Below are positions 9,701 through 59,500 of a stretch of DNA of 64,000 bases, piece by piece (position 1 is the stretch's first letter; each line of letters begins with the position of its first letter). The stretch covers positions 3,286,001-3,350,000 of the forward strand of contig JAYWIR010000019.1 in the NCBI GenBank assembly GCA_036172245.1. Reading direction: 5' to 3'. The DNA is from Raillietiella orientalis (Eukaryota). The notes under the pieces were generated by a model, which was not told the DNA's origin, did not search any database, and was given only the letters and a program-made list of their open reading frames with translations. The translations under genes and the position numbers were made by a program.

Positions 9701-10377
9701 AGTCCCCAGTGCGCGGAGGAATTCAGTTCCGACCACGCCGCTTCCGGATCGCGAGAGGGGTCATTGCAAACAGCCACCGGGTCACGCGCGCTGAGCAGAT
9801 CCGACTGCCGCTCCCCCCGTTCAAGAAGACCGCGACTGGGATCTGCACCACCCCGGCTATGGCTCTCGTAAGAAGAAAAGGAGGGAAAGAAGAAAGCAAA
9901 GAGAGGAAGAGAGGGCAAGGAAAGAGGTCCGATGGACTGGGATGAACCCGACAGCCGCACCGGAAAGAAATGCCGCCGGAGGGGATAACCTCCGGAAGGC
10001 GCTCCTCGTGCCGGACGGCTCCTCCTCTTCCTCCCCCTCGATCGCTGATGGGGGTTGAGTCAAGGTGGACTTCCGTCCCACCTCCCAAGACCCCGCGTCT
10101 CTTCGCCACGTTGCAGCATTTCCCTGGATACCGATCTCCCCTCCCGTCCTTCTCTCTTCCGCGGTGCCTTCCGGAGTGACGAGATCCCTCCTCGGGCAGG
10201 ACGGACCCTGCTTGTCGGGGGATCTGTACGCTCCCGCGCCCTCCGGGTTGCGAAACTAGGGGGGGAAGGGGGTGCGCGTTGATCCCGGCGTGATCCTTTC
10301 ATCCCTCCCCCAGAAGGACTCCCCGTCGCGCACCTCCCCCCCCCACCCCCCTCCGCTCAAGAATCACTGACGAGTAC

Positions 10378-11394
10378 CTGGGAGAGCCCGTGGTCTCTCG
10401 TGCCGGCGGTCTCCGCTCCGATGCCGCTGTCCGGAGAAGACAGGTCGATGGTCAGTCCAGGACCTCCCACTTTGTACACAGCACTGGGACGCACGTACCG
10501 GTCCACGTACGAGTTCTCAAGGTGGCTGTCGTGGGCGTAGCCGAGGTGCCTGATGCTCAGGTAGTGGTCGGAGGTCGGGGAGTCGTAGTACTCGCGGTAG
10601 TAGTGGTCGCCTCCGGCCCCCATGCGGTACATAGGGTCACCGTCGTCGACGGGACTGGCCACGGACGCCAGGGAGTCCGCGGAGGGGTGGTGCTGGTGCT
10701 GGTGGTGGTGGTGGTGGTGGTGGTGATGGTGCAGGCTCGCGAACGCCACCACGCTGTCGTAGTGTCCATTCGAGAACCCGTGGCCGCTGCCGCTGCCGCC
10801 TCCACCTCCGGTAGCATACGGGGACTGCTGCAGCATCTTCTCCGAGTCCATTGAGTTCTGCACGATCACGGATCCGCCTCCGGCGGGATCCCTGCCCACT
10901 TGCTGCTGCTGCTGCTGCTGCTGCACGAGCACGTTGGGAGAGTGGCGGGTGGCAGGCGAGGAAGGGAGGCCGTCCATGCCAAGGACCCTCGGGCTCTTGC
11001 ACTCTTCCTTGATGAGGATGTGAGAGAGGATGCCGCCGCCGCCCGAAGACGACGATGATGACGACGACGGCAGTGGCCCGGAAGGAACCGAGGCAGCGCC
11101 GATCACCGAGGGGCCCAGGACCTCCATTCCCGGGTGGGCCAGAGCTCCCGCCTTGTTCACGATGACCGAGTCGCCCAGCTCGCCGCCACCGTGGTCGCCT
11201 CGGGAGCCCATGAGAGTGACTTGGGACATCTCCGGGGCTGCTGCTCCCTTCCAGCGATGGCTCCGCTCAGCAAAGGGTTCCCATCCGAGGCATCTCGCGG
11301 CGGAAGCTTCGCTCGGGAGGATGCCCGGCTCGGAAACTGCCCGCCCGGATGACGAATCGCTCCGAGAAAGAGGATGACCCATCTGCCGTCTCAT
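10378..11394 (-). CDS. grh: Grainyhead (Grh/CP2 family transcription factor), large N-terminal coding exon of about 339 aa; DNA-binding domain exons not seen in window
   Basis: Long clean ORF with poly-S, poly-Q and poly-H tracts, ending YVDRYVRPSAVYKVGGPGLTIDLSSPDSGIGAETAGTRDHGLSQ. This matches my recollection of the arthropod Grh motif FVDRYIR...GLTVDLPSPDSGIGADAITPRDQ. It is followed directly by a phase-0 donor CAG|GTACTC at 10378/10377. Start placed at the first ATG (11394); ATG 11382 or a later one is also possible. Confidence 0.85.
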
Positions 11395-11529
11395 TGGTCG
11401 GACCGAGCGGTGACGTCGAGGCAAGTGCGCTTTTCTTTTTTCCTTTTTTTTTTTTTCTCTTACTCTCCCCCTCCTCTTCCTCTTCCTCCTCCTCCTCCTT
11501 CCTTTCTTTCCCTCTGTGCGTGGTTTGTC

Positions 11530-11555
11530 CACGTGGACCCGCGCGGGTCCACGTG
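11530..11555. promoter_or_regulatory. Perfect 26-bp palindrome with a CACGTG E-box at each end, about 135 bp upstream of the grh ATG
   Basis: CACGTGGACCCGC|GCGGGTCCACGTG is its own reverse complement and is flanked by GA/CT-rich tracts. The regulatory role is inferred. Confidence 0.45.
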
Positions 11556-12279
11556 CGCACCTCTCTCTCTCTCCCTCTTTCATTTTCCTTTTTTCTTCCT
11601 TTGAGCCTCTTCTCTCACTCTCTCTCTCTCTCTCCTTGATCTCAGGGCGATCTATGCGGGGCTTGGACGGAGCTACCGCGCTCTCGGTGGATGCCACGCG
11701 CGGGCGTGGGCGCGCTCGAGCCCGATCCCCAGGCGGCGCGGGGCGTGAAGGAGACGGGTGAGGCGGTGGCGGCGGCGACCGGCAAGGGAAAAGCAGGGAA
11801 GGGGGAGCAGAAAAAGTGGAGGAAGTAGAGGAAGACAGGATGAGGAGGAGGGAGAGAGAGAGAAGGGGGTAGGTCAGCGGAGGAAGAGGAGCCTCCGTGC
11901 TGCTGTGGCGTCCGCCACCACTCGAAACCCGGCTCTCGTCCTCTAGCGAAACGTCACAGCAAGAGGCATGCGCAGGCTAGAAAAAATCAGAAAAGAGAAG
12001 GAGGATAAGGAGGACGGGGCTAGGAAGAAGGAAGGAGGGAAAGAAGAGGACGAGAAAGGGGGGAGAAAGTTAAGCATCCCTGAGGCGAAGATTGCATCCT
12101 CAAGGGTGCATTTCTTCCTCTCCCCTCTTCCCCTCGCAACCCTCACAGACGGTACCTCTCCTCCATCGGGAAGCGAATCTGGGCTGGGAGAGCACCTGCC
12201 CTTCTCGGCTTGCTGAGTCGTCGCCTGGAGGCACGAAGAGGAGGACCACAGGAGCAAGGAAGTGCTCCGAAGTACCTCC

Positions 12280-20139: not shown

Positions 20140-20480
20140 GATCTTGGCATAGAGAACTTCATGACCATCGAGGGCGTCACGTGTCCTCTCTGCTTCATCG
20201 TGGGGAGTAGAAGGAAGGAAGGCGTCCCTGAAGCGTGGGGGGAGGAGATGACCTGCAGTTATCTCCGGGGTCACCAAGGCGGTGGAAAGCGTCTCTTCTG
20301 GAGAGCGAGGACCCCCCTCCCCAAATTCCATAGTTCCGAAACCTGGATGGATTCTCCGGGAGAATTTCGAGGTCCTGTGCTTCCTGGTCGACGCCTCCAT
20401 CCTCCCCTTTCCGGTGGAGCCAGCAGACCGCCATCTTGCTGGTGCACCGGGCGTTCCCTCGAAAAGAGGAGCGCTGCCCC
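20140..20480 (+). mobile_element. Gag-like LINE ORF1 relic
   Basis: EGVPEAWGEEMTCSYLRG...ILPFPVEP/RPPSCW resembles the pre-zinc-knuckle region of ORF1 (GVP..EE+...L; V.PY.P.P..C). Patchy DNA similarity to the 46330-46080 minus strand. Confidence 0.4.
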
Positions 20481-20789: not shown

Positions 20790-21520
20790 AATGCAAGCCA
20801 TACAAGGATGTGGTTACTTTCCTTCCACCCGAACCATGGAATCTACTTTGGGCATCGTTCACCCCCCTAGCCCTAGCGCTTCCCTCCTTACGGGAAGCAA
20901 AGGACAGCGACCTTCCAGTAAGGTGGAAGGCACTATCGAAAATAGAAGACATTTAATTGCTTGGACAATTCGGGAGCTGACAGATGCTGCCACCCCGAAT
21001 GTCCCTCCAAAAGGACTGCTACGCTGGGGAAAGCTACTAGAAATTCATCTGGAGAAGATACAGTGGCCTTTAAAGTTCTGGAACAGTGCAACCTTCCTCC
21101 TAAAATGGCAGGAGTCGGCGATCCTTCTGTTGAATTGGGCCTTCCGGTGCAACGCCCACCGACACCGTTGGACCCAGGGAGGTGAATGCAAGCCCCAACT
21201 GCAGCAGGTGTGACGAAAGAGAGCCCCTCCTACACCTTCTCGTGGATTGTGTGGCATGTGTGGCCCTCCGTCTCCTGCGGGAACGCTTTGCCGCGTACCT
21301 GAGGATCCCCGAGGGCAATCCCAGAAACCTCCCGAAGCGCCTCTTTCAGCGCGATGCCATCACGCCGGTCGCATCCCTAGCAGCACTTTTCTGCCTACGC
21401 GGGTTCGTGGCTGCATGGATCAGCGCCAGAGGAGTTCAGTACAACAGGCATGCCATGTATTTTGCTGTCATCTTCATGAGGACAGCGACAAGATGACCCC
21501 ATCTGGGAACCTTAAAATAG
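20790..21520 (+). mobile_element. Second copy of the L1/Tx1-like ORF2 3' end
   Basis: PNVPPKGLLRWGKLLEI, LKWQESAILLL and SPNCSRCDEREPLLHLLVDC...ERFAAYLRIPEGNPR...ASLAALFCLRGFVAAW align with the copy at 55460-54950. Confidence 0.8.
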
Positions 21521-22199
21521 GAACTTGCCGGCATCCTTACAAGGATGCAGAGGACGCCCTCCAACACTCGGTGATTCCATCCCGAACCTTCCCATTTTTT
21601 TCAGATATTTTTTGTTTCATTTTTCTTTTTTGTTTGTCCCCTTCCTCTCTGCTACCGAGGAGAACCTCACCGACCTGCGCTCCGATACTCTGCAGGTTCC
21701 TTTTAGTATATTTATAACGTGGCAGGACCAAGCGTCCTGCCACTGACCAGTATGTTTATTTTTTATATAAATAAACGCCCCGGAGCAACTGGGTGTCAAA
21801 TCCGAACCACAGAAGTACCTCTTCGTCCTTTCTTCTTGCTCTCCGTACGCCCAGAACGTTTCTGAATCTAGCTATGGGCTTGAAAGAGACAGGCAACTCG
21901 ACTCAATGGTCCTATCAGAACTGTTCTGGATAAAACCAGGAAGCCTAAGGGGACAGGATGATTCATAGTCGCTGGAGGAATGATGCAGCAGCCGTTCCGG
22001 TTATCGCCAGAATGGCTTCGAGAGTTCTCACCACCACCTCTGCAGACCGTTCGCCTCCTTGAACTCGCCCTCGTGATGAGGATGCAGGACGCTTTCAACG
22101 CAGGCGTTGTCCATTCAGCAAAGTTCCTCATTAATCTTATGAGTACATGGCAGCGCACGGTGGGGGAGTCGCTCACACTCTTTGCCGGACGGAAAAGAA

Positions 22200-22560
22200 A
22201 GTCCACTATCCTCGGGGTTTTCAAGATTCCTTAGACAGCTCTTCCGGCTTCTCTATTGGGATGTGGCACCGTCAAAAGATTGCTGGGTGTGGAAGGACAG
22301 GAGTGCTGGATGCTTGCTTCCTTGGTCATTTCCCTCCTCATGTGACCTCTTCTCTACGGTTTTGGAGCACCAGACCTGGGATCTTGTCTCAAGAAAGGAC
22401 CATTGGAGACGAGCAGCTCCCCTAGTGGTTAAACACCTTCTTCTTCATCTTGCTGAGCAGCTCGTCGTGGCGTTTCACGATCACGTAGTGCTTCTCATCA
22501 GGCGAGAGAACCTTCTGGATTGAAGAGCATTCCCAGTACTACTAGATGTTCGAACACACC
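22200..22560 (-). mobile_element. Probable restriction-like endonuclease relic of the same R2-group element
   Basis: KHYVIVKRHDELLSKMKK (RHD motif), KIPGLVL (cf. RPDLVL) and IPIEKPEEL (cf. DxTIPFE), on the same strand and downstream of the thumb relic. Confidence 0.5.
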
Positions 22561-22729
22561 CATTTTCTTCCTGATGTGCTCCATGTGTCCCAGAAACTCT
22601 TCCGTTCACCAGATCTCAGGATTCTGAGTACGAAAAACGGTCTCACTGATGCAATCACTCCTTTAACCCTATCCGTACCACCCAAAGGTTCGTGGAACTC
22701 TTCAAGTTAGAAGGCAGTTCCGGAGGCAC

Positions 22730-23265
22730 TTCTTTGTTTCCTCTCCGAAGGGAACCCGGAAAGGATCCATCTTGGAATTTCTTCTCCAGAAGGCATTGGC
22801 AAGGAACTGCCCTTTCTTTTTCCCCCTCTGACGAGAACTCCGAAGGGATGCTTCCCAGTTTCTCTGAAGGGCTCTCCACGAAGGGAGCAGCGCAACTTAT
22901 TGCACTCTGGAGAAGTATCAACCAACCAATTCCTCCATGGTACGAGATGGTGGATTCTTCCCCCGAAGGGGGGAGGGATGGCTTTATTTTCACAACAGGA
23001 GGGAACCCAGAAGGGCTTCTTGACTCCTGGAAGGACCCCAGGAATCAAACTTCCAATCCCGGTCACTCAACAGGAGCATCCGGTTTCCACCAACGCCGCA
23101 CCTGAAACCTACGGACCAACCAACTGGAGGGACTCGAAACCCACGACACACCTATTTCTCAATCCTTCGATTCTTCCCCGGGAGGGACTCGAACCCTCCC
23201 GTGGAAGACTTATCCTCTTGATACCACGTGGGGAAGCCGCTGCCACACGGCCTCCCACGCCGGTC
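22730..23265 (-). mobile_element. tRNA-headed dispersed repeat, copy C (inverted, shorter at the 3' end)
   Basis: The minus strand has a perfect T-arm GGAGGG-TTCGAGT-CCCTCC (23199-23181), then CCGGGATTGGAAGTT, GGGTTCCCTCCTGTTGTGAAAAT and CTCCAGAGTGC shared with copies A and B. Confidence 0.8.
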
Positions 23266-24646: not shown

Positions 24647-25330
24647 GACTCGCGTTGGCAGCCATGTGGCTGCTGCAGTCTCTTCCCGTGGCAGCAGGTG
24701 TTGAGGATTCAAATCTTTCCCGGGGAAGGATCGATGCCGAGAAATGGGTGCGTCCTGGGTTTCTATTCCCCCCCCCCGTAGGATGACACTGACTGACCTA
24801 TTAGGTTGCAGCACTGATGCAAGCTGGAAACCCCCCAAGATGTCCCCATTGACTGGCCGGGATTGGAAGTTGACCCTCCAAGATCCTTCTGGGAATCAAG
24901 AAGAAATGGAGTAATGCGTCCCTTCCCCTCAAAGGGGACCCACCATCTGGTAGCATGGAAAAACTGGTTGACTGATACCTCTCCAGAGTATGAAGTGCTC
25001 TTCTCTCTTCAGGGAACCGCCCTGCAGAGAAATTGCGAAGCGTCCCTTTGGGGTTCTCTTCAGACGAGGAAAAACAAGGAGCGGTTCCCTTGCGGGTTCT
25101 CTCCAGAGAAGAAACGAGGAACAGTCTCTACAAACCGGATGGTTCCTCCGGGGAGAGTGAGGAAGGTTCTCTTCCGAGTTCCTTCTCAAGCATGACAGAA
25201 ACGGACTCTTCCCTCCGGAGTCTTCCTGGATTCATAGGGTGGTCCACACCTGGGGCATCCCCTATCTTGAAGAATTCCATGCACCCTCGGGTGGTGTAGA
25301 CAGTGTTAAAGAGCTTCGTGATCCATCCCC
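24647..25330 (+). mobile_element. tRNA-headed dispersed repeat, copy B
   Basis: Starts GACTCGCGTTGGC like copy A (GACTCCCGCGTTGGC). Degenerate B-box GGATTCAAATC, then CCGGGGAAGGATCGATGCC. Aligns to copy A for about 680 bp. Confidence 0.8.
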
Positions 25331-28300
25331 ACCCCCCATCCACCACCCTAGGGAGGCGAACACTTCTTCTGAGGAAGTCCTTGCTGCTGCTTGGTTGTTC
25401 TCCTTCCTCGGAGTGTTAAGAAGCATCAACGAAAGTTCCAGAAGGTTTGTATCGCTTTTCATTTCACCTTCGCACGTGTCCCCAAGTTCCTGCGGACACA
25501 CCTCGCTGACCTCTCAAAGAGTCAAATTCCAAAATTTGGAAAATCTCACAGAAGCGCCATCCAAAGTAAAGTTAACCCTGTACCACGGCGGGCCAACGAG
25601 AGGGACACAGTCTCCGGACAGACGTTCAGAAGATTGAGGGAAGAGCTGAGACTCGATGTTCCCGTTGCCTCGCAGGGCAGCCGATGCCCGGTTTGGTTTT
25701 GCGTTCCCCTGTTCATCCCCCTCCCCCCGTTGCTGCTTCCGAGCATCCCACGAAGCCACTAGGCTGTTGCCGTCATTCCTCGGGTCCCAATCGGGGTCGA
25801 GAGAAAAAGTGAGTGCTTCCGGCAGGTCGGCACGGATCCTCCGAAAACTCTGCAGCACTCTGTCCACCGAGTGGAGGCGGAGAGCCACTGGTTTTGACTC
25901 CGGGAAAGGAACCATCTTGCCTGTCGTGAGCTGGCATGAGTGTGCATGTCAAGACAAGATTAGCACTCTTTAGACCCTCTCTCTGACCTTTATTCTTGGA
26001 CCCACCCACGTTTGGCAGCCATTCCACAGATCCTCCCGGTTTCATGAAGCTCCCTGTGAACCACACCATACTGCACGGTGGTTCAACGCGATCCCAATCC
26101 ATGAGTGGAAAACGTTCCGTGCGATCACCTTGGAAACGAGGTAGAAGGAGGGGAAAACATGTCTTGTGGATTGCGAGACGGTAAAAGTGGACGCAAGCGA
26201 TTGCATTGCTGCGAATCGGAGAAATCGAAATCTCCAGAAATCTCTCGAGCAAAAAAGAAAGGAAGAAAGAAAGACACCCATCCGAATCTACACCTCCCTT
26301 TTCAGATTCAAAGAATCAGATTTATGCGAAGCGAGCTCCAAGCTTCGAAAACGGCGCACCTCATCCCACTCGGCATGCATCTCGCGCCCGTTCGCACTCC
26401 GCGACGCGGCCGAGCCTCAGCTTTTCTGCGAATCGGGGGGAAGGGGAAGAGAGGAGCCTCCTCCCTTCACGCGGAGAAACTGCCCTCAGGGTGTTCCCCG
26501 TTCGCGATTCCCAGCACCCGATCTTCGTGGTGGCACTGAACGGAAAACTGCTCACGTGTTGCTCTTGCGGCAGCAGCGTCGTCGCCACAGCCGCCTCCAT
26601 GGAAGCGAACCCCGAGACATCCAGCAACCCGCGTTTCTTACGAATTCAGAGACGGACTGTCGTGCTCCCTTCCATCATCCCATGCATTATGGAGCCTGAT
26701 TTATTGCAGGCCAAACTATGTCAGGCATGCTTTCGAATTTCTGTCCCGGCAACAGTCCGTAAAAGGTGGCCTTTGGCAGAATCAGCTGCGATCTCATCGC
26801 GCACTCTCTAAAAAAAAAAAAAGAAATTGTTTAGAAAGCATCGACTGAGGTCTCGGAAATTAGTCTGGCTGTTTCTATATACACCATCTCTCCGGTGAAT
26901 GATGGATGCGGTGCACGGAGGTTTTCAGTTACTCGCGGTCAGGCCAACCCTTACAGCTTGCAGGCCTGGATCAGAGGTGGGGCCACATTCCCCCATCGAG
27001 AACGGGAAAATGTGGCTCTGGCGGAACAAATGATGAAATCGTCGATTCCATCGAGGATTGGTCACCGCTCGGGAGGGAAAGAGCTCACGCCCGTTCTGTG
27101 AAGATGGAAGTAGTCATGAATCAGTAGCGGGCCACCTTTCGGATGGTGACGCAGAGAGCAGCCCTGAAAGCGAACTGGGGCATTCTGGACCGGGTAGTGA
27201 AACTCACAGGAGAGCGGGGATGCTTTCGGTGGACCCAGTGGTCATTGCATCTACCACTTTTCCAAAGCGCGTAACACAAGGATCCAATGTTCCAGGCTTG
27301 AGGCGCCGAGGTGGAAAGGAAGAGAGGTGGACGATCGTGCGGATGGGCGAATCTGCTTTTCGAAGGGGAGGGGGAGCACCGGTGAGGATAGCCTGTCCGC
27401 GTGAATGTCACAGGAATCTTCAGACGGAGGAAAAGCAGCAGCTTCCCGGCTAACAGCACGCTGGAACTTCTGCGTGGACCGAATGTTTGCCTGAGAGCCT
27501 TCGCTCCCCGAAAACCATGGAAGCGAACCCTAGAGCACCTTACGATACTCCCCATATCGTTTGTCGCTGTATCCTCGTAACTTATCGCTTGTTTATATCG
27601 TACCAACTGCCGTTCCCCGACTTTCAGAGATACTTGAAAATGGGTAGCCGTGGAATCCCGCGCGCAACTTTTCTCAGTCCCGTAAAACGAGGCCCGGCAA
27701 ACCTAGGAATGCAACCATCCGTGAGGCGCGCACCCTATGGTTCCTTTCCCCTTTTCGCAAGACCTGCTCGTTGTATGCACTGTTTCGTGTTTTCCAAAAA
27801 ATTCCCTGTACAAAACAATTCCTTTATTTTTGTGAACTTTGCTGTTTACGCGCTACAGAGAGGAAGCCATTTGCATCTCAGGAGAAAAAGAAGAAGAAAA
27901 AAAGAATAGGAAATGATTATACTTTGCAACATTTGGAAACATCAGGCAAGAAAGAATTGGTCTTCGAGGGAAGTGCTCTCAGCAAACGAAGAAACCAGCG
28001 GGACCGAGTCCACATGGTCTTTTGCGAAAAAGGACGTTTTTTTTTTTTTGTTGTTGTTGTTGTTATTATTTCTGGACTGGTGCATTCCCATAAGCACGCG
28101 ATTTCCCTAATCCAAGAACACACAAGCTGATCCTGAAATCAATATTTACATGTGGAGTCGCAAATAACGTAATCCCTCGGGAGCAGCAGATCACACACTC
28201 CAGCGAGCCAATGATTTTTTCTAAGTGAGATCTTCAGTATCTTGAATCCGATCTGCAAGATAAAGTTATTGACACCTTTTCTGAAGGTCTGCCTTGCAGG

Positions 28301-51127: not shown

Positions 51128-51900
51128 GACTCCCGCGTTGGCCGGGAGTGTCTACGGTCTCCTCGCCACATGGTACCAAGCGTCGCGGGTTCGAATCCCA
51201 CCCGAGGAAGGATCGATGCCAGAGAACTGGGTGCATTGTAAATTGAAGTTCCGCCAGAATGGCACTGGTTGGCCTCGGTTGGCTTCGGGTGCGGCACTGG
51301 CGGAAACCGGGTGTCCCCGTTGACCGGTCGGGATCGGAAGTCGGCCCGCAGGGTCCTTTCTGGAATCAAGGAGCACTTCGGGGTTCCCCTTCGGTTGTGA
51401 AAATGGAGTCGACCCCCATCGAGGAAAGATCCTCTACTGCCTACCATGGAGCTGCTGGATCGGTACCTCTCCAGAGTGCGAAGAACTCGCTGCTCCCTTC
51501 GGGGAGCGGACCTTCGGGGTTCTCTTCAGAGGAGGAAATAGGGAGCGGTTCTCCTGCGGGTTTCCCCCGGAGAAGAAATCCCAGGAGCGGATCCTTTCCT
51601 GGTTCCCTTCAGGGAAGAAATAGTGAATGAGGAAGAGATGGTTCCCTTCAGGGTTACTTTCCAAGCGTGAAAGAGGAACGGACCCCTTCTCCCTGAGTCC
51701 TTCCTGGATTCCCAGGGTGGCCCCTTCCAGGGTACCCCCTATCCTGAAGTGTTGACACGTACCCTCGTGGTGGCGTGAAACAATGTTGTGTAGCTTCGCC
51801 AGTCCCCAGGCGAAGGGCAGTTCTTGAGTGCTTAGCGAACCAAAAAAGAAAAAACCCGAAAAAAAAAAGGAAAAAAAAAAAAAAGCTAGAAGGAAAAAAG
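51128..51900 (+). mobile_element. tRNA-headed dispersed repeat, copy A (SINE-like, or 5' end of a LINE), ending in an A-rich tract
   Basis: B-box GGTTCGAATCC at 51188-51198 within a T-arm-like hairpin. Colinear similarity to 24647-25330 and 23265-22730, for example GGAAGGATCGATGCC, GGGTTCTCTTCAGA and CTTCCTGGATTC. A-rich run at 51842-51900. Confidence 0.8.
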
Positions 51901-54900
51901 TGAAATCAGAAAAGAACCCAAAAGGATGTCCATCTCGAGCAAGCAGCTTTGGTGGAACGATGGTGAGTTTGTCCGCACCCGAGACGAAAAAAGCCAACGC
52001 TGGAACGCTGCAGCAGTCCAAGAGGCTCTTTCGCTTCGGCTCTAGGTTCTTTCGGAGGTGCGTTGGTTCCAGCAAAGGCAGCGCGAGGAGAACAGGACGG
52101 AGCCTGCGTCCTTGGAGACTGGTCCAGTGATTTCCTCTCGCTGTGACCCGGCACTTCCGTCACTTGATCCGGCGTCCGAAAGATTCCTGGCAAACCAAGG
52201 AGCATCACGCGGACAGTGCGCGAGTCGTCGAGAAGGTCCAAGCGAGAATTTGTGTACAGTACAGTGGGAACGCAAGTACAGCATACATTCGATACAGTTC
52301 ACCTTTGCTGGAATTGCTAAAAACGTTGCCTTTGATAGAATGTTGTTGATTGTCTCAAGAGGGGTGGTGGAAATTAAAAAAAAAAATATTTTGGATAATT
52401 AAATAAAGGAAACCAAATTGCTGAACAGTAACGTGAATTTTTATAATCAAATGGGCAAATTTTAGTAACATTACAAGAGTAAAAAATAATAATGGTGTAT
52501 GGCAAATGATGATGACGATACGATATAAAATTTGATTCAAACTTCTTCACGAATGGCTGTTTCCCGTATTCTTCTCCAAACAAGAAATGCAAACCCTTTC
52601 TGACCACTCCAGAGCTGGATTGAGCGGGTGGTCAACAACTTCGCCAATGTCAAATTTTTGAACCGGGCTACTCTCATCTCAATTTTCTCTCTTGCGTGCT
52701 CCACAGGAGCGTTCGCAATGATATACAGATGATGAACACGATTTCATTGGTTTTCTCCTTCCGCCCATTCCGTAATCTCAGAGTCATTTGCTACATTTTC
52801 TCTTTTTATGGAATTGAATCGTGCTGCAATGGGTGTGTCATCTTCATCTGTGTCAAAATAGGTAAATTCAACTCAGTTTCTTCAGCTGATGAATACAAAT
52901 GCTTAAATTGCATGTAAATTTCAAACACAGCACTTTCACCTTCGTTACCTTTTCTATTTCACGTAAAATATTCAACTTTTATTGAAGACTTGATAGATTC
53001 TTATTGTTTCATATCTTTAACGCGGTTGAAAAAAGTTCCTCTTGCTGGATGGCAGAAACCTTAAAATGTTGACTATATGAAGGGTTACTTATGTCAAAGG
53101 TTCCTTTCATCAAAGGTGACTACATCGAGCGTACACCATACGAGCACTTGGTGCAGAGGATTCTCGAAAGAACGGGACGACCTTTCCCGCAGCGGCAGAT
53201 GCGTTCGGAGAAGGCAGCGCATCCTCTGCACGCGGGATGCAGGAGCCTGCCTTTCCGGTCCCTCGTTTTTGGAAGAGGAAAAAGCTCTGCGCACGGACAA
53301 TATCGTAGCCGAGGAAGTTCCGCCGAGGTGCGATTATCGCTAGTAGAAAACGTTTTTGGAAGACCCTCCCAACACCGCGCAGGAGTGGCGCCGTCCTCCG
53401 GATGCGGGACTACCGGGGGCAGCGCGGGTCTTTAGCCCTAGATGACTGGGGCAGGAACCCGCTGCGCGGTCAGCAGCTGCTGAGGCGGAGGCCGGCAGGA
53501 GGAATTACGGCCGGAGTGAAAACTCACACTTCTGTCCGGGCGCTCCGACTTTTCTGGACGCGCCCCCGGAAAAGTCGGAGTTTCTTACAAAGGCAGCCAC
53601 CGCCACCGTTAGTTTCATGCGTTTGTCGTCCGCAAAAGTGCGCGGGCAAAATTGTGCATCGACTCCTCAGCTCGCTCTTCAGAGCAGATAAAGGCACAGT
53701 TGGATGCCGAGCTTCATTACTCACAAGGCAACAGACGTTTCCCCACCATTCAGCGCAATTAGAAGATTTCCGTGGGAGCCGACTTTTCCCTCTATGACTT
53801 CCATTAGAGGTCGCAGAGAGCGTTTTTTCCTGGAGACCTCTTTCCACGAAGAGAGCAGGATGATGATGATTGGACAGGTCTTTGGAGCTTTTCCACACCC
53901 ACTGCCATTTTAGATTGGGAATAAAGTCATTCTTCCTACTCGCCTCCCCCTCCCAATTAAAGCGAAACTTGGCGAAGAAAGCACGGATCTCTCGTTCCAG
54001 CAGGTGCCTCTTGATTTCCAAGTAACATCACCACCATGTCAAAATAAAACGATTACCAGGTCCGGGTTTTGCTATCCACGGTACCTATGACCGTTGGAAA
54101 ATGGGAATTCTCTTTCGAGGCAAGCAGTCGATGGGTGTTAGCCTCTGTGGTCCACTTACAAAGGAAAGATATTCCTCTCCTGGAGAGCAAAAAGTGAAAA
54201 ACAAGGCAAACGCAGGTGCGACCTCCTCTCGTTTTCCTAAAGAAAATTCACGTGGATGGAGAAAGTGCCGCCTGAACAGCAATGCCAGTCTTTCTTCTTG
54301 TTGTTTTCCTCTCTCTGTTTCACATTGAACGCCAGCCGGAGGTCAGAAACAGTCAAGCACTTCCTGAAATCGATCGACCCTTGGCCGTGCTCCAGAAACG
54401 CCACAGGGACTCGCCGCCTTTCCGTGGATGTTCATTGCTCCCTCCCTTGAACTTATTCTGCTGCTCAGCCGGCTCCCAAGAAAGGTACGCCGACGAGGTC
54501 CTCGACAAAAAACAAAAGGTGGCGAATGAGATTTAGGGGGCTTCTCCCTGCTTCGCATTCCAAGAACTGTGATGGACCTGACCTAACCTTCCTGGAATCG
54601 ATCGATTCTCCGTCGAGCTCCAGAAACGCAACCGCGTCGTCCGGCCTAGCCGCGATGTAGAACGAGCAGATTCATTGATAAAAGCGAAAATACGGCCGGA
54701 GACCAACGTGTGCCGGACCGTATCCGAATGGACCGCCTTCGCTGAACAAGGTGGCATCGTCGCCCGTGAGTGCATTATACCGGGAGTCTGTCAAATTACC
54801 GGTACGCAGACCGGTGAGGTTCGCGACGGCAGCAGAAGGGAGGAGGCAGCCAAAAAAATAAACAAATTTGGGGGGTGAGGGAAGGGATCTCTATCTGCTG

Positions 54901-54929
54901 GCGGCAGTCCTCTGCACCTTCTGCAGGAT

Positions 54930-56500
54930 GCGACAAGCTCTTGCTGTATGGATTTGATCAAGTGCCGCCATCTCGTTGCCATCCTCATGGAGCAGACGGC
55001 AAAGTGGATGGCATCCTTTTGCGGTGCCCTCCCCTTGCGTCACTCCAGGCAGCGACTATCCCGCGCAGACAGCAGAGGACTGCTAGCGAGGCTGCCGGCC
55101 GAAGTGCGTCGCGAACGAGGAGGGATCGTAAAGCGTCCCTGGGGTTGCCGCCAGCGGTTCTTAGGGTCACGGCGAAGCGCTCCCAGAGGGGCCAGAGGGA
55201 AACATTATCCACTAGCAGGTGGGGGAGAGATCCACGTTCCCCGCACCTTCCACAGTTGGGGTCGACACATACCTCGTATCTAGTGATTCCGAGGGACGTT
55301 GCACGGGAGGCCCTAGTACAACAGCATCAGCACCGACTCCTACCACTTCAATGGGAGCGTGTGTGTGTCCAAAAGCACTGGGGACCACTGCCGGAATTTC
55401 CAGTAGCTCTTCCCAGCTCAGAAGTCCTTGTGGGGAGGGGGCATTTGGGATCACGATCTCCATGAGCCGGCCTGTCGTCCACTAGCCCAGTCCTTTCCTC
55501 CTTCTAGAGATGCTCACACTAACCTCCCATCTTGCAGCTAGGCTGCTGCCCATGTGTTCCCTGGAGAGAGGGCTGAGCTGCGGCGAGGAAGGTTCTACCT
55601 GCTCACGCACTCTTCATAAGATGTTCTAGGATCTTCCGGGGCGATCAGCCATTGCAAAAACAGCACAACAAGCGCTGCGCATGTTCCGGGCATGGCTCGT
55701 TGTGCTTTGCCCACCTGCGGACAGTTTCCTGCAACCAGGCACTACCGTTCGCTCTCGCGTTTCACGAGATCCAGCTCATGTTCTTCCTGGTGAGCGAGGC
55801 CACCCGAGGAAGCCGCAGTCCACTGTGGGAGATGTTGCAGCGACCCCCGCGCGCAAGGAAGGACGTGAATCCCCGCTGCCAGTGGCTTGCTCGACAAGGA
55901 GGCGTGCAGGATCGCACGAGGTGGTGCTCCACAACTTCTCCATGGGGGCAATTATCCGGAACTGGAACTGAAGGTCCAGGCGCTCTAGCGCCTAGATGCT
56001 GAGACCGCCGTCCCGAAGCGGAGCGCACAAGTCCTTCATTTGGACTCGGGGCCTCTCCTTGCCCCAAAGAGCGATCCTGATGAGGTCCTTCGTCCACTTT
56101 ATGATCCTCTCCGGTGAGAGGGCGGAGAGGGAAAAGACAAAAAATCAGGAGGAGCAGGTAATGAGGTGAGCCGGTAGCCAACATGATTCCCGAAGGCGTG
56201 CGCGCATCGGGTAGGTGAAGGACGAGAGCTACGGGACACGACTCATGGGTATCTCTCACGTTCCCGATCCACAGTTGTACGAGGGCCGAAGGTTTGCCTC
56301 GCGCCTTTGACATTCACTGCCGCTCTCACGTGGCAGAGAACCTGCCGGTGCGAGGAAGCAGCCGGTGAGCCTGGAGAGGCGAGCAGGTCCCCGGACAAGT
56401 CCTTGAGGGGCGCAGCGCCGGGGAGCTGCAGTGCTCTGCGACGCAATTCCATCTCCGTCCTGGCTCTCCGCATCCGAAGAACCACGGATGAGGGCACTAA
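54930..56500 (-). mobile_element. Decayed L1/Tx1-like non-LTR retrotransposon, 3' half of ORF2
   Basis: RIALWGKERPRVQMKDLCAPLRDGGLSI (cf. FxW...LxxPxxxGGL) and a C-terminal zinc-binding motif DPNCGRCGERGSLPHLLVD...LWERF. Many stops and frameshifts. Confidence 0.8.
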
Positions 56501-59500
56501 AGAAAGATTTGCTTTTCACTTCGAATGTCCTCCGGCACACTTGAAGATGACGAGGAACAGAAGAAAGACATTGGTGTATTGGAGTCAACGCCTTCTATCG
56601 AGGCACGACCAAAGGAATGGAATTTTCCATGGAAAAGGAGTACCAACTTTTGAGCGACCGATTCCTGTGACTGCTTGATCTAAATTTCCATGAATTCTCG
56701 ATAGCTGAAGTTTCGTACTTCGCCCGGCTTTTCAAAGACTGGAATGCGCACCTCCACCACATCCGGCGGCACCTCCAAAACTACCCCAGTGTTCTTGCAT
56801 TTTCCGGTGGTTTCGCTCCTGTTTCCCTCGCGGTACTGAGACCCGTAGACTGCTTCTTGGAATCGTCTTCAGTTCTTGGGATGCAACGCCGAGAGAAGCT
56901 CCCAAATCTGAATCGCGACTCTTTTTTGTTTTTTCTTGTCGAGCACCTCGTCGGCGTGGCTTCCTTGGGAGCCGGCTGAGTAGCAGAAGTTCAAGGGAGG
57001 GGGCAAAGAACGTCCGAAGAAAGACGGCGAGTCGACGGCGGTGATGCAACGGGGAAACAGAACTCAACCAAAGGTCACCACGCACGAAACAAGACAGAAA
57101 CGATCAAGTTGCCGTGTTTCGAATCAGCCAGGAGCAAAAGTGTCCGTCTGCGCATCGGCAGACGCATCTCAGGTAGGACCGTCAGAGATTCTTCTAAAAA
57201 ACAAAAAAGAGCGTGAAATGCCTGGTATGCACTGCTTCTTGATGGAGGTTTTCTCCTGGTTTAGATAGTTTATGCTTCAGATGGCGGCGCGTCGATGCTA
57301 CATTGGGCGGCGAAGACAAGAGAAGTAGGTAGTCTCTCTGGTAGAATCAGCAGCTGCTGCTGATTCTGCCAGCTTGTCGTCAAGCACGAATCCTCAGTGT
57401 CGAGCACCTCACCATTTCGGGAACCAGCAGCAGCTACCCTCAAGCGAAGGTGCCGACAACCCTCTGCACGCGAGCTCACCAAACGCCTTGGAATACAAGC
57501 TGGAACGTTTCTCAGGAGGGAAAATCGACTGACAGAAGCGGACCTCTGGGGTGCTTCTCTAGGAGGCGCGCCATGCAGCTCCAGTCCTTCGTGGACTATG
57601 CTGAACGCTTCGTCCTCCCCTACTACTCCCTCATCCTGCGCTCCCAGATGACGGTGACTCGATGCTACGCTGGCAGTTGCGCCCTCAGAGCAGTGCTCCA
57701 CAGGGAGATCGTCGACTCCCAAGTCCTTTTCAGAGAACTTCTCAGCGTCCTTATTCGGATGGACCCTGAGAGCCTTACTAAAGCTCCTGATGACCCTGTG
57801 AAGTTCGGGAATTGATGAAGACCGGTTCTGTGGACAGAAGGATCGAGCGGATGCTCACTGCCCAAATTCACTCAACTGATGCTGAAGATAGATGGATGGG
57901 AAGAATCCCAAAGGGAGTGACCTCCGCCGACCTTCTTGAGAAATTCGTCCCTCCTCTCCCTGTTCCTGGAGACTTGAGAGTAGGATGACCTTGAGTTAAA
58001 ATTGTCTATTTCACTCCTGTAAGCATTTGAAACTCTCATCTGAGTAGTTAGGAAGTCCTTCCTCATTCCCTAAAACATATTCTTCAAGAGGGCGTTTCAA
58101 GCATTTCATGGAGGGTTGCAAGGAATGAGATCAGGCAGCAGCACGCTATCAGATCGGAGATGCAAGATTTCACGTGGAGAGAGATGGTTCCAAAATGAAC
58201 ATTTCGGGCATGATAGAGAATATTTCGAGGAACATACGTCAAAGGAATGATTTAGCGTACTCCGCAAGTGCAGCAACATGGCATCTCACTAAGAAAGTTT
58301 TTTTGATTAAAATAAGTTCCACAAATACGCATCTTGTTGCAATTTATCATTAAAAACCAGAATGCATGTTGCTAGTATTGAAAATGTCCGAGGGAGAATC
58401 AATGGGAACGAACATATGGAAAGAAAAACGCCATTTTGAATCAAGGACCTATTGGAAATTTCGGTAGCTTTTCCCGCAACCCTCTTGAGGTTCTCATTTG
58501 CTTTGTGCTTCAAATGCAGCTGCTTTTAGACCGTTGGGCTTTTAACTATTTAATCAGACTTTTCCTTTCATGTGTCCTAATTACAATTCCTTCTTAGAAA
58601 GTTGAGATTTACATTAGAGGTCCACCAGCAAATGTGGTTGTGAAACTATCATTCCCTAAGAGTCTGCATGAGTTATCTATTCTTCCATGATTACTTGAGT
58701 GTTTGGTACTCATCGTTTTGTGAACCGAATCAGTGATGCAAGGTGGAAATTACTGGACAAAACTCTTCAAGTTCCTAACACAGTCATGACGTATGGAACA
58801 GGGTGGATAAGAAAATAGACAGGCCACTCAAGTTCCTAACTCGAAATGACTCGACTCTTGCTTGCCATTCCAATAACACATTGGGAATATTCCTTCTCTT
58901 CAACTGTGCGAATACTGAGGAGAAAAAGACCGTAGTAACTAGCATGGAGAAGGAGTTTTTTAACTTGTTCCCATGATGATACATTCTTCCTTCAGAATAT
59001 CACTCCTTCCTAAAAAAAAAACTTCCATATCCTTATCATTTTCCATGGATATTATGGACGTCTTTTGATCCTTATTCATCATCACCCTACTGACAATATT
59101 CTATCTTCTTATTTTCTATTCAGACTCCATTTTGGAATCCACACTCCTTCTCATCTTCTGTATCCCATAGCCTTCACGTAATTGCAGTCTCCATTCTCCC
59201 TCACTCCTTTATGCCAAATTCTTACCTCATTTCCCACCAGTATTCATGATCTTTTATTTGAACTCGTATTGGCGTTTATTATATCTTTGATGACTGTTTT
59301 TCCTTTTCTTACACTTATGATTATAGTCTTTCAATTCATGAAAGGCAAATAATTACCAACTATTAAGAAATAAGGAAATTATTCTCTAAGTAACATGACA
59401 CTTTATGCCTTCAAGAAAAAAATTTGAAAAATACATCCATTAGTGAGTTAAGCTCATTCATAGCACTAGTAGTGAAACACAGTCCTCCATTTTGAATGGT

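What the first reader, a model, noticed from the sequence alone, without database searches (positions are those of the whole stretch)
51128..51900. Repeat family with a tRNA-like Pol III head fused to an apparent LINE ORF1 start (three copies)
Seen: copies at 51128 (+), 24647 (+) and 23265 (-) begin at the same point and carry a T-arm/B-box (GGGTTCGAATCCC; perfect 6-bp stem in copy C). They stay colinear for 530-700 bp, longer than a typical SINE. About 270 bp in, copy A has AAAATGGAG, and all three keep a similar peptide (PxGFSSEEE...AVP...EKK). Copy B ends in GGVDSVKELRD, like the G.V.SVK.LR motif of gag-like ORF1s. Known: LINE copies are usually 5'-truncated. Inference: these copies keep the 5' end and lack the 3' part, so this is either an autonomous LINE with a captured tRNA promoter or a long SINE whose body derives from a LINE 5'UTR/ORF1. 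Separate gag-like relics at 20140 and 46330 may be the downstream continuation.
Basis: partly seen in the sequence, partly recalled or inferred. Interest (0 to 1): 0.7.

Follow-up and report, generated by a model that had tools for sequence, protein, structure and literature searches.

The report
Long tRNA-headed SINE trading with LINEs
The three copies are old members of an unusually long, non-coding jumping repeat with a tRNA-like promoter; it encodes no protein, but it has swapped pieces and landing sites with the LINE retrotransposons that probably copy it.

Summary
The three copies are real and belong to an interspersed family of thousands of copies. The ORF1 reading fails: the family stops at both ends, the majority sequence has a stop 26 codons after the ATG, the 'GFSSEEE' block falls in all three frames, and a younger subfamily has ACG there. 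The peptide comes from a ~40-bp internal repeat. The element is a long tRNA-headed SINE: about 840 nt (window copies) or 1,075 nt (young subfamily), with a head closest to this genome's tRNA-Arg(CCT). Young copies end in a hairpin, a T-run and poly(A), inside target-site duplications. The LINE link runs the other way: one L1/Tx1-type LINE lineage carries a ~415-nt internal SINE piece in its 3' UTR (one clade nested among young SINEs), and one SINE-LINE chimera sits inside a single duplication. Most young copies keep the 5' end and stop early. Pol III transcription and the mobilising LINE are inferred, not shown. The scan has already noted what appears to be this ~0.8-kb SINE, and LINEs landing in it, elsewhere in this genome. 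New variant of a known kind; modest interest.

The parts
51131..51934 (+). Copy A, near-complete old-subfamily SINE copy (82% to the old majority sequence)
   Evidence: nhmmer model 5-836 of 837, E 1e-196; identity
51131..51207 (+). tRNA-like head with a degenerate A-box region, T-arm and B box (GGGTTCGAATCCC at 51187-51199)
   Evidence: family majority heads align best to this genome's tRNA-Arg(CCT); this copy alone scores no ARAGORN or Rfam tRNA hit
51403..51630 (+).
   Evidence: no Pfam hit
51478..51711 (+). Old-type counterpart of the segment (young positions ~347-762) that one LINE lineage carries in its 3' UTR (start approximate)
51494..51660 (+). Internal ~40-bp degenerate tandem repeat with CCC-TTCG-GGG units; source of the PxGFSSEEE/AVP/EKK peptides (limits approximate)
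   Evidence: self-alignment of the majority sequence, 75% over 101 nt, E 5e-11
51842..51934 (+). Internal A-rich stretch and the old-subfamily end (CCATC); no terminal hairpin, no poly(A) after it, no clear target-site duplication
24648..25381 (+). Copy B, old subfamily, stops before the A-rich stretch; GGVDSVKELRD at 25290-25322 is a chance translation
   Evidence: nhmmer model 3-751, E 2e-172
22558..23264 (-). Copy C, old subfamily, most decayed; 3' third only weakly alignable
   Evidence: nhmmer model 3-532 (E 2e-132) and 648-813 (E 2e-12)

Best explanation
A long, non-coding, tRNA-Arg-headed SINE. SHOWN: defined 5' and 3' ends; tRNA-like head; no coding signal; thousands of dispersed copies; at least an old subfamily (window copies, ~840 nt, about 70-83% to majority where full length) and a young one (~1,075 nt, 92-96%) that ends in a hairpin, 2-9 T and poly(A) between target-site duplications; a ~415-nt internal piece embedded in the 3' UTR of one L1/Tx1-type LINE lineage; one SINE(1-763)+LINE-3'-end chimera inside a single duplication. 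INFERRED: Pol III transcribes it from the internal A/B boxes to the terminal T-run; the RNA gains an A-tail; an L1/Tx1-type ORF2 protein copies it by target-primed reverse transcription, priming at the poly(A), at internal A-runs, or at short RNA-target complementarity. That gives many 5'-intact, 3'-short copies, which is why the window copies keep the head. Template switching or RNA joining between SINE and LINE RNAs made the chimera and, once, the LINE lineage with the captured piece.
For: Shared sequence ends sharply on both sides in 30 of 30 fetched loci. Majority: stop 26 codons after the ATG; mismatch by codon position 0.22/0.24/0.22; 43 of 211 indels after the ATG are multiples of three, against 41 of 192 before it. 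ATG in 20 of 31 old copies, GFSSEE block in frames 5/6/5, 4 unscored; ATGG in 14 of 28 old and 1 of 53 young segments. Head: best of 59 genomic tRNA genes is Arg(CCT) for both majorities; controls with the 5' part shuffled reach the score in 13 of 500 (old) and 0 of 500 (young). No TTTT inside either majority. Terminal hairpin z -3.4; A-run after it in 42 of 44 copies. Duplications above the 95% null in 12 of 19 complete and 15 of 51 short copies. Head sequence precedes the body start in 99 of 100 listed matches (read by eye). LINE-borne segments form one clade (100/99) inside a young sub-lineage (95/90); placing them outside is rejected, p-AU 0.008 and 0.012; 8 sister LINE loci lack the piece and keep a short native 3' UTR in its place. 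Chimera L165. The LINE has APE, RT and an ORF1 zinc knuckle and is closest to human L1 ORF2 among solved structures.
Against: No single copy scores as tRNA (ARAGORN; Rfam); the 5' half of the old head alone is not significant (279 of 300 shuffles as good) and Glu/Asp score close to Arg. Absence of TTTT is weak (830 of 2000 shuffles also lack it). The SINE tail is not homologous to either LINE tail seen; only a 9-nt loop motif is shared (45 of 20000 shuffled tails; picked after looking). The sampled LINEs mostly end in 3-4 A whereas the SINE has long A-tails, so the tailed copies may have another driver. Only L1/Tx1-type and R2-like LINEs were sampled (30 loci plus 20 regions out of 150 scored and 3,358 candidate RT hits). 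The window copies themselves show no clear duplication or terminal hairpin. The tree direction assumes the root lies between old and young subfamilies, and the bootstrap had not settled. 36 of 51 short copies have no significant duplication and some are later deletions or insertions.
Confidence: 0.8

Rival explanations
1. Autonomous LINE (or ORF1-only HAL1-like element) with a captured tRNA promoter; the copies are its 5' ends.
For: Copies share a 5' start and often lack the 3' end; ATG in 20 of 31 old copies; copy A has a 75-codon ORF.
Against: No shared sequence beyond ~800 nt; complete young copies are closed by poly(A) and duplications; no frame or codon signal; no Pfam ORF1 hit in 35 scanned translations, of which only the LINE controls hit LINE domains over the cut-off; the element profile hits none of the LINE 5' regions fetched.
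Confidence: 0.02
3. A SINE as described, but with a body built from the 5' UTR of an unsampled or extinct RTE/Vingi-type LINE and moved by such a LINE rather than by the L1/Tx1-type family.
For: RTE and Vingi 5' regions are the documented LINE sources of SINE middles (PMC5786205, passages). The old subfamily ends without the hairpin and poly(A) (0 of 8 against 19 of 24 young), which fits a tail exchange and an earlier partner.
Against: No such LINE appeared among the loci examined; A-rich 10-17-bp duplications, poly(A) and the chimera fit L1-type machinery.
Confidence: 0.07
4. A Pol II-transcribed, Sadhu/SVA-like long retroposon whose tRNA-like head is vestigial.
For: Length of 0.84-1.08 kb, an internal tandem repeat, poly(A); the young B box has lost its last base and the A box is off-consensus (consensus recalled).
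Against: Copies start precisely at the first base of the tRNA-like head (24 of 30 copies picked by their 3' end start within 18 nt) and end at a T-run; AATAAA/ATTAAA lies within 150 nt of the end in only 4 of 44 copies.
Confidence: 0.03

Closest known systems
tRNA-derived SINEs (SINE2) moved by L1-clade LINEs without a LINE-derived tail ('relaxed' type; PMC3747384, passages seen)
   Same: tRNA-like head, non-coding body of unknown origin, poly(A), short target-site duplications, old and young subfamilies
   Different: 0.84-1.08 kb against 'usually 150-300 bp' (PMC8466645) or 'typically <=500 bp' (PMC4994717); internal ~40-bp repeat; short-at-3' copies are the majority
Crocodilian SINEU / Tx1-Mar system (PMC4494074, passages seen)
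   Same: SINE and Tx1-type LINEs linked by nested, site-preferring insertion; poly(A) tails; no clear shared tail
   Different: Here the head is tRNA-like, the SINE itself is the landing pad for a LINE, and young SINE copies land at one site of an old LINE's ORF2 end
U6/L1 and Alu/L1 chimeric retrocopies (10.1101/2025.02.02.635956, passages seen)
   Same: Sense-oriented small-RNA piece joined to a LINE 3' end inside one duplication (L165)
   Different: One SINE piece sits inside the LINE 3' UTR, with LINE sequence on both sides, and was passed on through further LINE copies (85% mean identity among six)
Tailless retropseudogenes (PMC5322556; abstract and first part of Results seen)
   Same: 5'-intact copies truncated at internal A-rich or target-complementary positions
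   Different: That study found no convincing oligoadenylated truncated forms for human 5S/U2; here a few short copies carry an A-tail where the SINE has no A-run (L224, L253, L267)
T+ SINEs B2, Dip, Ves (PMC8466645, passages seen)
   Same: T-run directly before the A-tail
   Different: No AATAAA near the end (4 of 44); T+ SINEs are reported there only from mammals

Membership tests
tRNA-derived SINE (SINE2) | 5' head derived from a tRNA, with A and B boxes | tested here: met
   Best match tRNA-Arg(CCT) of this genome for both majorities; 13 of 500 and 0 of 500 controls; B box clear, A box degenerate; single copies score no tRNA model
tRNA-derived SINE (SINE2) | Encodes no protein | tested here: met
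tRNA-derived SINE (SINE2) | Interspersed copies with target-site duplications and an A-rich or simple-repeat tail | tested here: met
   Young subfamily. Not visible in the three old window copies
tRNA-derived SINE (SINE2) | Transcribed by RNA polymerase III | not testable with these tools
   Only indirect: start at the head's first base, no internal TTTT, terminal T-run
tRNA-derived SINE (SINE2) | Short length (a usual property, not a strict one: 150-300 bp, <=500 bp in the papers read) | tested here: not met
   838 and 1,075 nt; this is why it is filed as a long variant that works like a SINE2, not as an ordinary member
tRNA-derived SINE (SINE2) | Mobilised in trans by a LINE | tested here: inconclusive
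   Chimera in one duplication and captured segment show contact with an L1/Tx1-type LINE; no assay
Autonomous L1/Tx1 LINE or ORF1-only HAL1-like element | ORF1 with RNA-binding domain or CCHC knuckle, and ORF2 with endonuclease and RT | tested here: not met
SINE with LINE-5'UTR-derived body (RTE/Vingi type, PMC5786205) | Middle region homologous to a LINE 5' UTR | tested here: inconclusive
   No hit in 308 kb of L1/Tx1-type and R2-like LINE loci except 3' UTR pieces and inserted copies; RTE/Vingi not sampled
SINE with a LINE-derived 3' tail (stringent type) | 3' end homologous to the partner LINE's 3' end | tested here: not met
   Only a 9-nt hairpin-loop motif is shared with the active family; none with the older family; other clades unsampled
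T+ SINE | AATAAA upstream of the Pol III terminator | tested here: not met
   4 of 44 hairpin-bearing copies
Hammerhead-bearing retrozyme / Penelope-like repeat | Hammerhead core with three paired stems | tested here: not met
   No Rfam hammerhead hit in 12 old and 11 young or LINE loci; a CTGAAGA...GAAAC likeness lacks stem III (read by eye; core recalled)
Catalogued family in Dfam/Repbase/SINEBase | Sequence match to a named family | not testable with these tools
   No such library on hand

The most novel reading that the evidence does not exclude
A non-mammalian, ~1-kb Pol III SINE whose RNA is A-tailed after termination or after 3' trimming without an AATAAA signal, is copied mostly as 3'-short forms, and exchanges sequence both ways with its LINE hosts: an L1/Tx1-type lineage took a 415-nt SINE module into its 3' UTR and kept moving with it, while SINE and an older LINE use each other as preferred landing sites.
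Probability: 0.3. Interest if true: 0.55.

Novelty: new variant of a known kind. Interest (0 to 1): 0.33.

Why it matters
It removes the claim of a tRNA-promoter LINE. What remains is a tractable case of SINE-to-LINE sequence flow, the reverse of the usual LINE-to-SINE direction, which warns that a SINE body matching a LINE does not by itself show LINE origin. The family also offers a test of how a 1-kb Pol III RNA gets an A-tail without AATAAA outside mammals, and of why 3'-short copies dominate. Each piece has a precedent, so the interest is moderate and mainly for mobile-DNA specialists.

Tried and rejected
ARAGORN and Rfam on the window and on 23 loci: no tRNA, ribozyme or other RNA family inside the element. 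ORF1 hypothesis: rejected; one of the 12 queries was in the wrong frame, and the right frame was covered. Relics at 20140 and 46330 as continuation: rejected. A self-cleavage or processing hotspot at young position 762-765 looked likely from the LINE junction, L165 and a targeted pattern (28 matches; about 6 SINE copies ending there, 5 LINE-borne, the rest mostly mutated intact copies), but the unbiased sample has 2 of 70 ends there against 0.7 expected, P 0.15: not supported. Hammerhead and HDV-like readings: no support. Solo LTR: ends are not TG...CA. Formal covariation test of the ATG hairpin: the aligner put the two subfamilies out of register and my pair-count script was too crude, so both are uninformative; the T-A to C-G change is read by eye and is one event. 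Overall folding of the body is not above dinucleotide shuffles apart from the young head (z -3.5) and one old window (z -2.5). Expression: no RNA holder listed. Look-up of earlier notes by sequence and nearby place returned nothing. A first tree had only 4 old copies and was redone with 17.

Full report
OBSERVATION. The three copies are there: 51131-51934 (+), 24648-25381 (+) and 23264-22558 (-), 66-75% identical in pairwise blocks. The B box, the 6-bp stem in copy C, the ATG at 51403 and GGVDSVKELRD at 25290-25322 are as described. A search of the 210-Mb genome with copy A gave 4,646 first-look candidates, of which 40 were scored. Density in the window (3 in 64 kb) and in 30 tRNA-gene flanks (4 in 92 kb) suggests roughly 9,000-10,000 copies (rough).

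BOUNDARIES. All-against-all comparison of 30 loci shows shared sequence only over ~800 nt, with nothing shared on either side. The old majority sequence is 838 nt; full-length copies are about 72-83% identical to it. A younger subfamily turned up through a LINE search: ~1,075 nt, 92-96% to its majority, 66-72% to the old one. It has 168 exact matches to a 20-nt head motif, perhaps 600-700 copies. A few intermediate copies exist.

NO ORF1. The old majority has a stop 26 codons after the ATG, flat mismatch rates across codon positions, and 43 of 211 indels in multiples of three after the ATG against 41 of 192 before it. The ATG is present in 20 of 31 old copies; the block read as GFSSEEE lies in frames 0, 1 and 2 in 5, 6 and 5 of them, 4 unscored. 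Copy B stops after two codons and copy C lacks the ATG. The young subfamily has ACG (ATGG in 1 of 53 segments, against 14 of 28 old). By eye the ATG is one arm of a hairpin whose partner base changes with it between subfamilies; formal tests of this were uninformative. The peptides come from a ~40-bp internal tandem repeat. Pfam found no ORF1 domain in the element or relic frames, and blastx against 167 ORFs from LINE loci hit only a SINE copy's own antisense frame. The relics at 20140 and 46330 are unrelated; 21134-21493 looks like the end of an old L1-type ORF2 (zf-RVT E 0.085, under the cut-off).

HEAD. No single copy scores as a tRNA. Against 59 tRNA genes taken from 60 of the 62 genomic matches, both majorities align best to tRNA-Arg(CCT) with a 4-nt insertion. 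With the T-arm held fixed and the 5' part shuffled, 13 of 500 (old) and 0 of 500 (young) controls score as high. For the old head, Glu and Asp are close and the 5' half alone is not significant. So a tRNA origin is good and the Arg assignment is likely.

TAIL AND INSERTION SIGNATURE. Complete young copies end in a hairpin (z -3.4), 2-9 T, sometimes a few extra bases, and an A-run (42 of 44). AATAAA or ATTAAA lies near the end in only 4 of 44. The variable T-run could reflect Pol III ends plus tailing, but PMC8466645 reports that terminators lengthen in the genome with age, so this is not decisive. Old copies that reach the pre-tail motif lack the hairpin (0 of 8, against 19 of 24 young, the 5 counted by eye; P 1e-4). 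In the first 70 of the 168 head-motif matches, 19 reach the end and 51 stop early; at least 8 of the 51 are later deletions, insertions or a recombinant (and by eye). Of 30 copies picked by their 3' end, 24 are 5'-complete. So 3'-short copies far outnumber 5'-short ones. Duplications exceed the 95% null in 12 of 19 complete and 15 of 51 short copies. Short copies end at internal A-runs, at overlaps between RNA end and target, or rarely with an A-tail where the SINE has none (L253 and L267 in the sample; L224 from a targeted search).

TRAFFIC WITH LINEs. The top RT hits are an L1/Tx1-type family (APE, RT, ORF1 zinc knuckle; closest solved structure human L1 ORF2; clade not tested by tree), often in ~5.6-kb head-to-tail arrays. 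Ten loci of one sub-lineage carry young positions ~347-762 between the ORF2 stop and the LINE's own terminal hairpin (418 bp, 88% in L143). Eight sister loci lack it, as do 27 of 34 LINE 3' ends listed (a sample enriched for carriers). In a 42-row tree six LINE-borne segments form one clade (100/99) inside a young sub-lineage (95/90); holding them outside is rejected (p-AU 0.008 and 0.012). With the root between old and young SINEs this is one capture from SINE to LINE. L165 is SINE 1-763 joined in sense to the last 653 nt of a related LINE inside one 13-14-bp duplication, like U6/L1 and Alu/L1 chimeras. L131 is a LINE inserted antisense in an old copy with a 19-bp duplication. An older L1-like family, a relic of which lies at window ~20840-21795, has inserted into old SINE copies near position 77-79 (sense; L182, L197, L220, and L028 by eye) and 172-181 (antisense; L182, L195, L197, and L015 by eye). 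Conversely 6 of 44 tailed young copies sit at one site in that family's ORF2 end, in flanks only 59-82% alike, so independently.

AGAINST MY READING. Pol III transcription and the partner are inferred. The SINE tail is not homologous to either LINE tail; a shared 9-nt loop motif was noticed after the fact. The sampled LINEs have very short A-tails and the SINE long ones. Other LINE clades were not sampled. A processing hotspot at 762-765 failed an unbiased test (2 of 70, P 0.15).

EARLIER NOTES. After forming my reading I found notes from this genome on a ~0.8-kb tRNA-headed SINE and on LINEs landing in it. They agree, though I could not match their sequences to mine. One (e1-7590895) reads the body as a LINE 3' UTR; I tested this and found a head before the body start in 99 of 100 listed matches of 173 (by eye).

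LITERATURE. Seen as passages: PMC4494074, PMC5786205, PMC3747384, PMC8466645, PMC4994717, 10.1101/2025.02.02.635956; abstract and the first part of Results: PMC5322556. No supplements were opened; those of PMC4494074 and PMC5786205 may list closer cases. PMC5786205 mentions a possible LINE-SINE recombination in the 5' UTR of Ingi-3_AC, so SINE-to-LINE flow has at least a suggested precedent. Searches listed no paper on a ~1-kb tRNA SINE or on a LINE lineage with a SINE piece in its 3' UTR, but the library is partial and repeat databases were not available. Promoter-box and hammerhead consensus motifs are recalled.

VERDICT. A long tRNA-headed SINE, not a LINE start. New variant of a known kind; interest 0.33.

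Noticed in passing
window 53283-53366 (+): 5' part of a U4 snRNA-like sequence (45.9 bits, gathering score 46) ending in a T-run; another U4-like piece lies in L173:917-1050. Probably retrocopies.
   Followed up: no
L143:2352-2467 and L129 ~6620-6480 (-): L1/Tx1-type LINE 3' ends are followed directly by U1 snRNA-like sequence (Rfam E 5e-4 in L143; L129 by eye); possible U1 targeting.
   Followed up: no
L121-L126, L129, L136, L138: The active L1/Tx1-type family forms ~5.6-kb head-to-tail arrays, often on small contigs or near contig ends; units end in AATAAA, a short hairpin and mostly 3-4 A.
   Followed up: partly
window ~20840-21795 (+) and 54797-55348 (-): Two relics of an older L1-like family (64% alike); this family inserts into the SINE at two recurrent sites and hosts young SINE copies at one site.
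   Followed up: partly
L242 and L243 (young position 851): Two different young copies are each followed at the same position by the same inverted SINE head sequence; independent events or a duplication, not resolved.
   Followed up: no
L250, L264, L278: Three young copies share a similar internal deletion from ~850-868 to ~1005 and end just before the terminal hairpin; possibly a small sub-lineage.
   Followed up: no
L127, L128: R2-like elements (RT without APE domain, 1,249-aa ORF) in tandem.
   Followed up: no
window 10357-11976 (-): Long ORF with a His-rich stretch and an SPDSGIG motif, recalled as a grainyhead-like exon (name from memory).
   Followed up: no
window 54408-54569 and 56870-57033: Inverted pair, 81% over 168 nt, not identified.
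   Followed up: no
Identity unresolved.
   Followed up: partly
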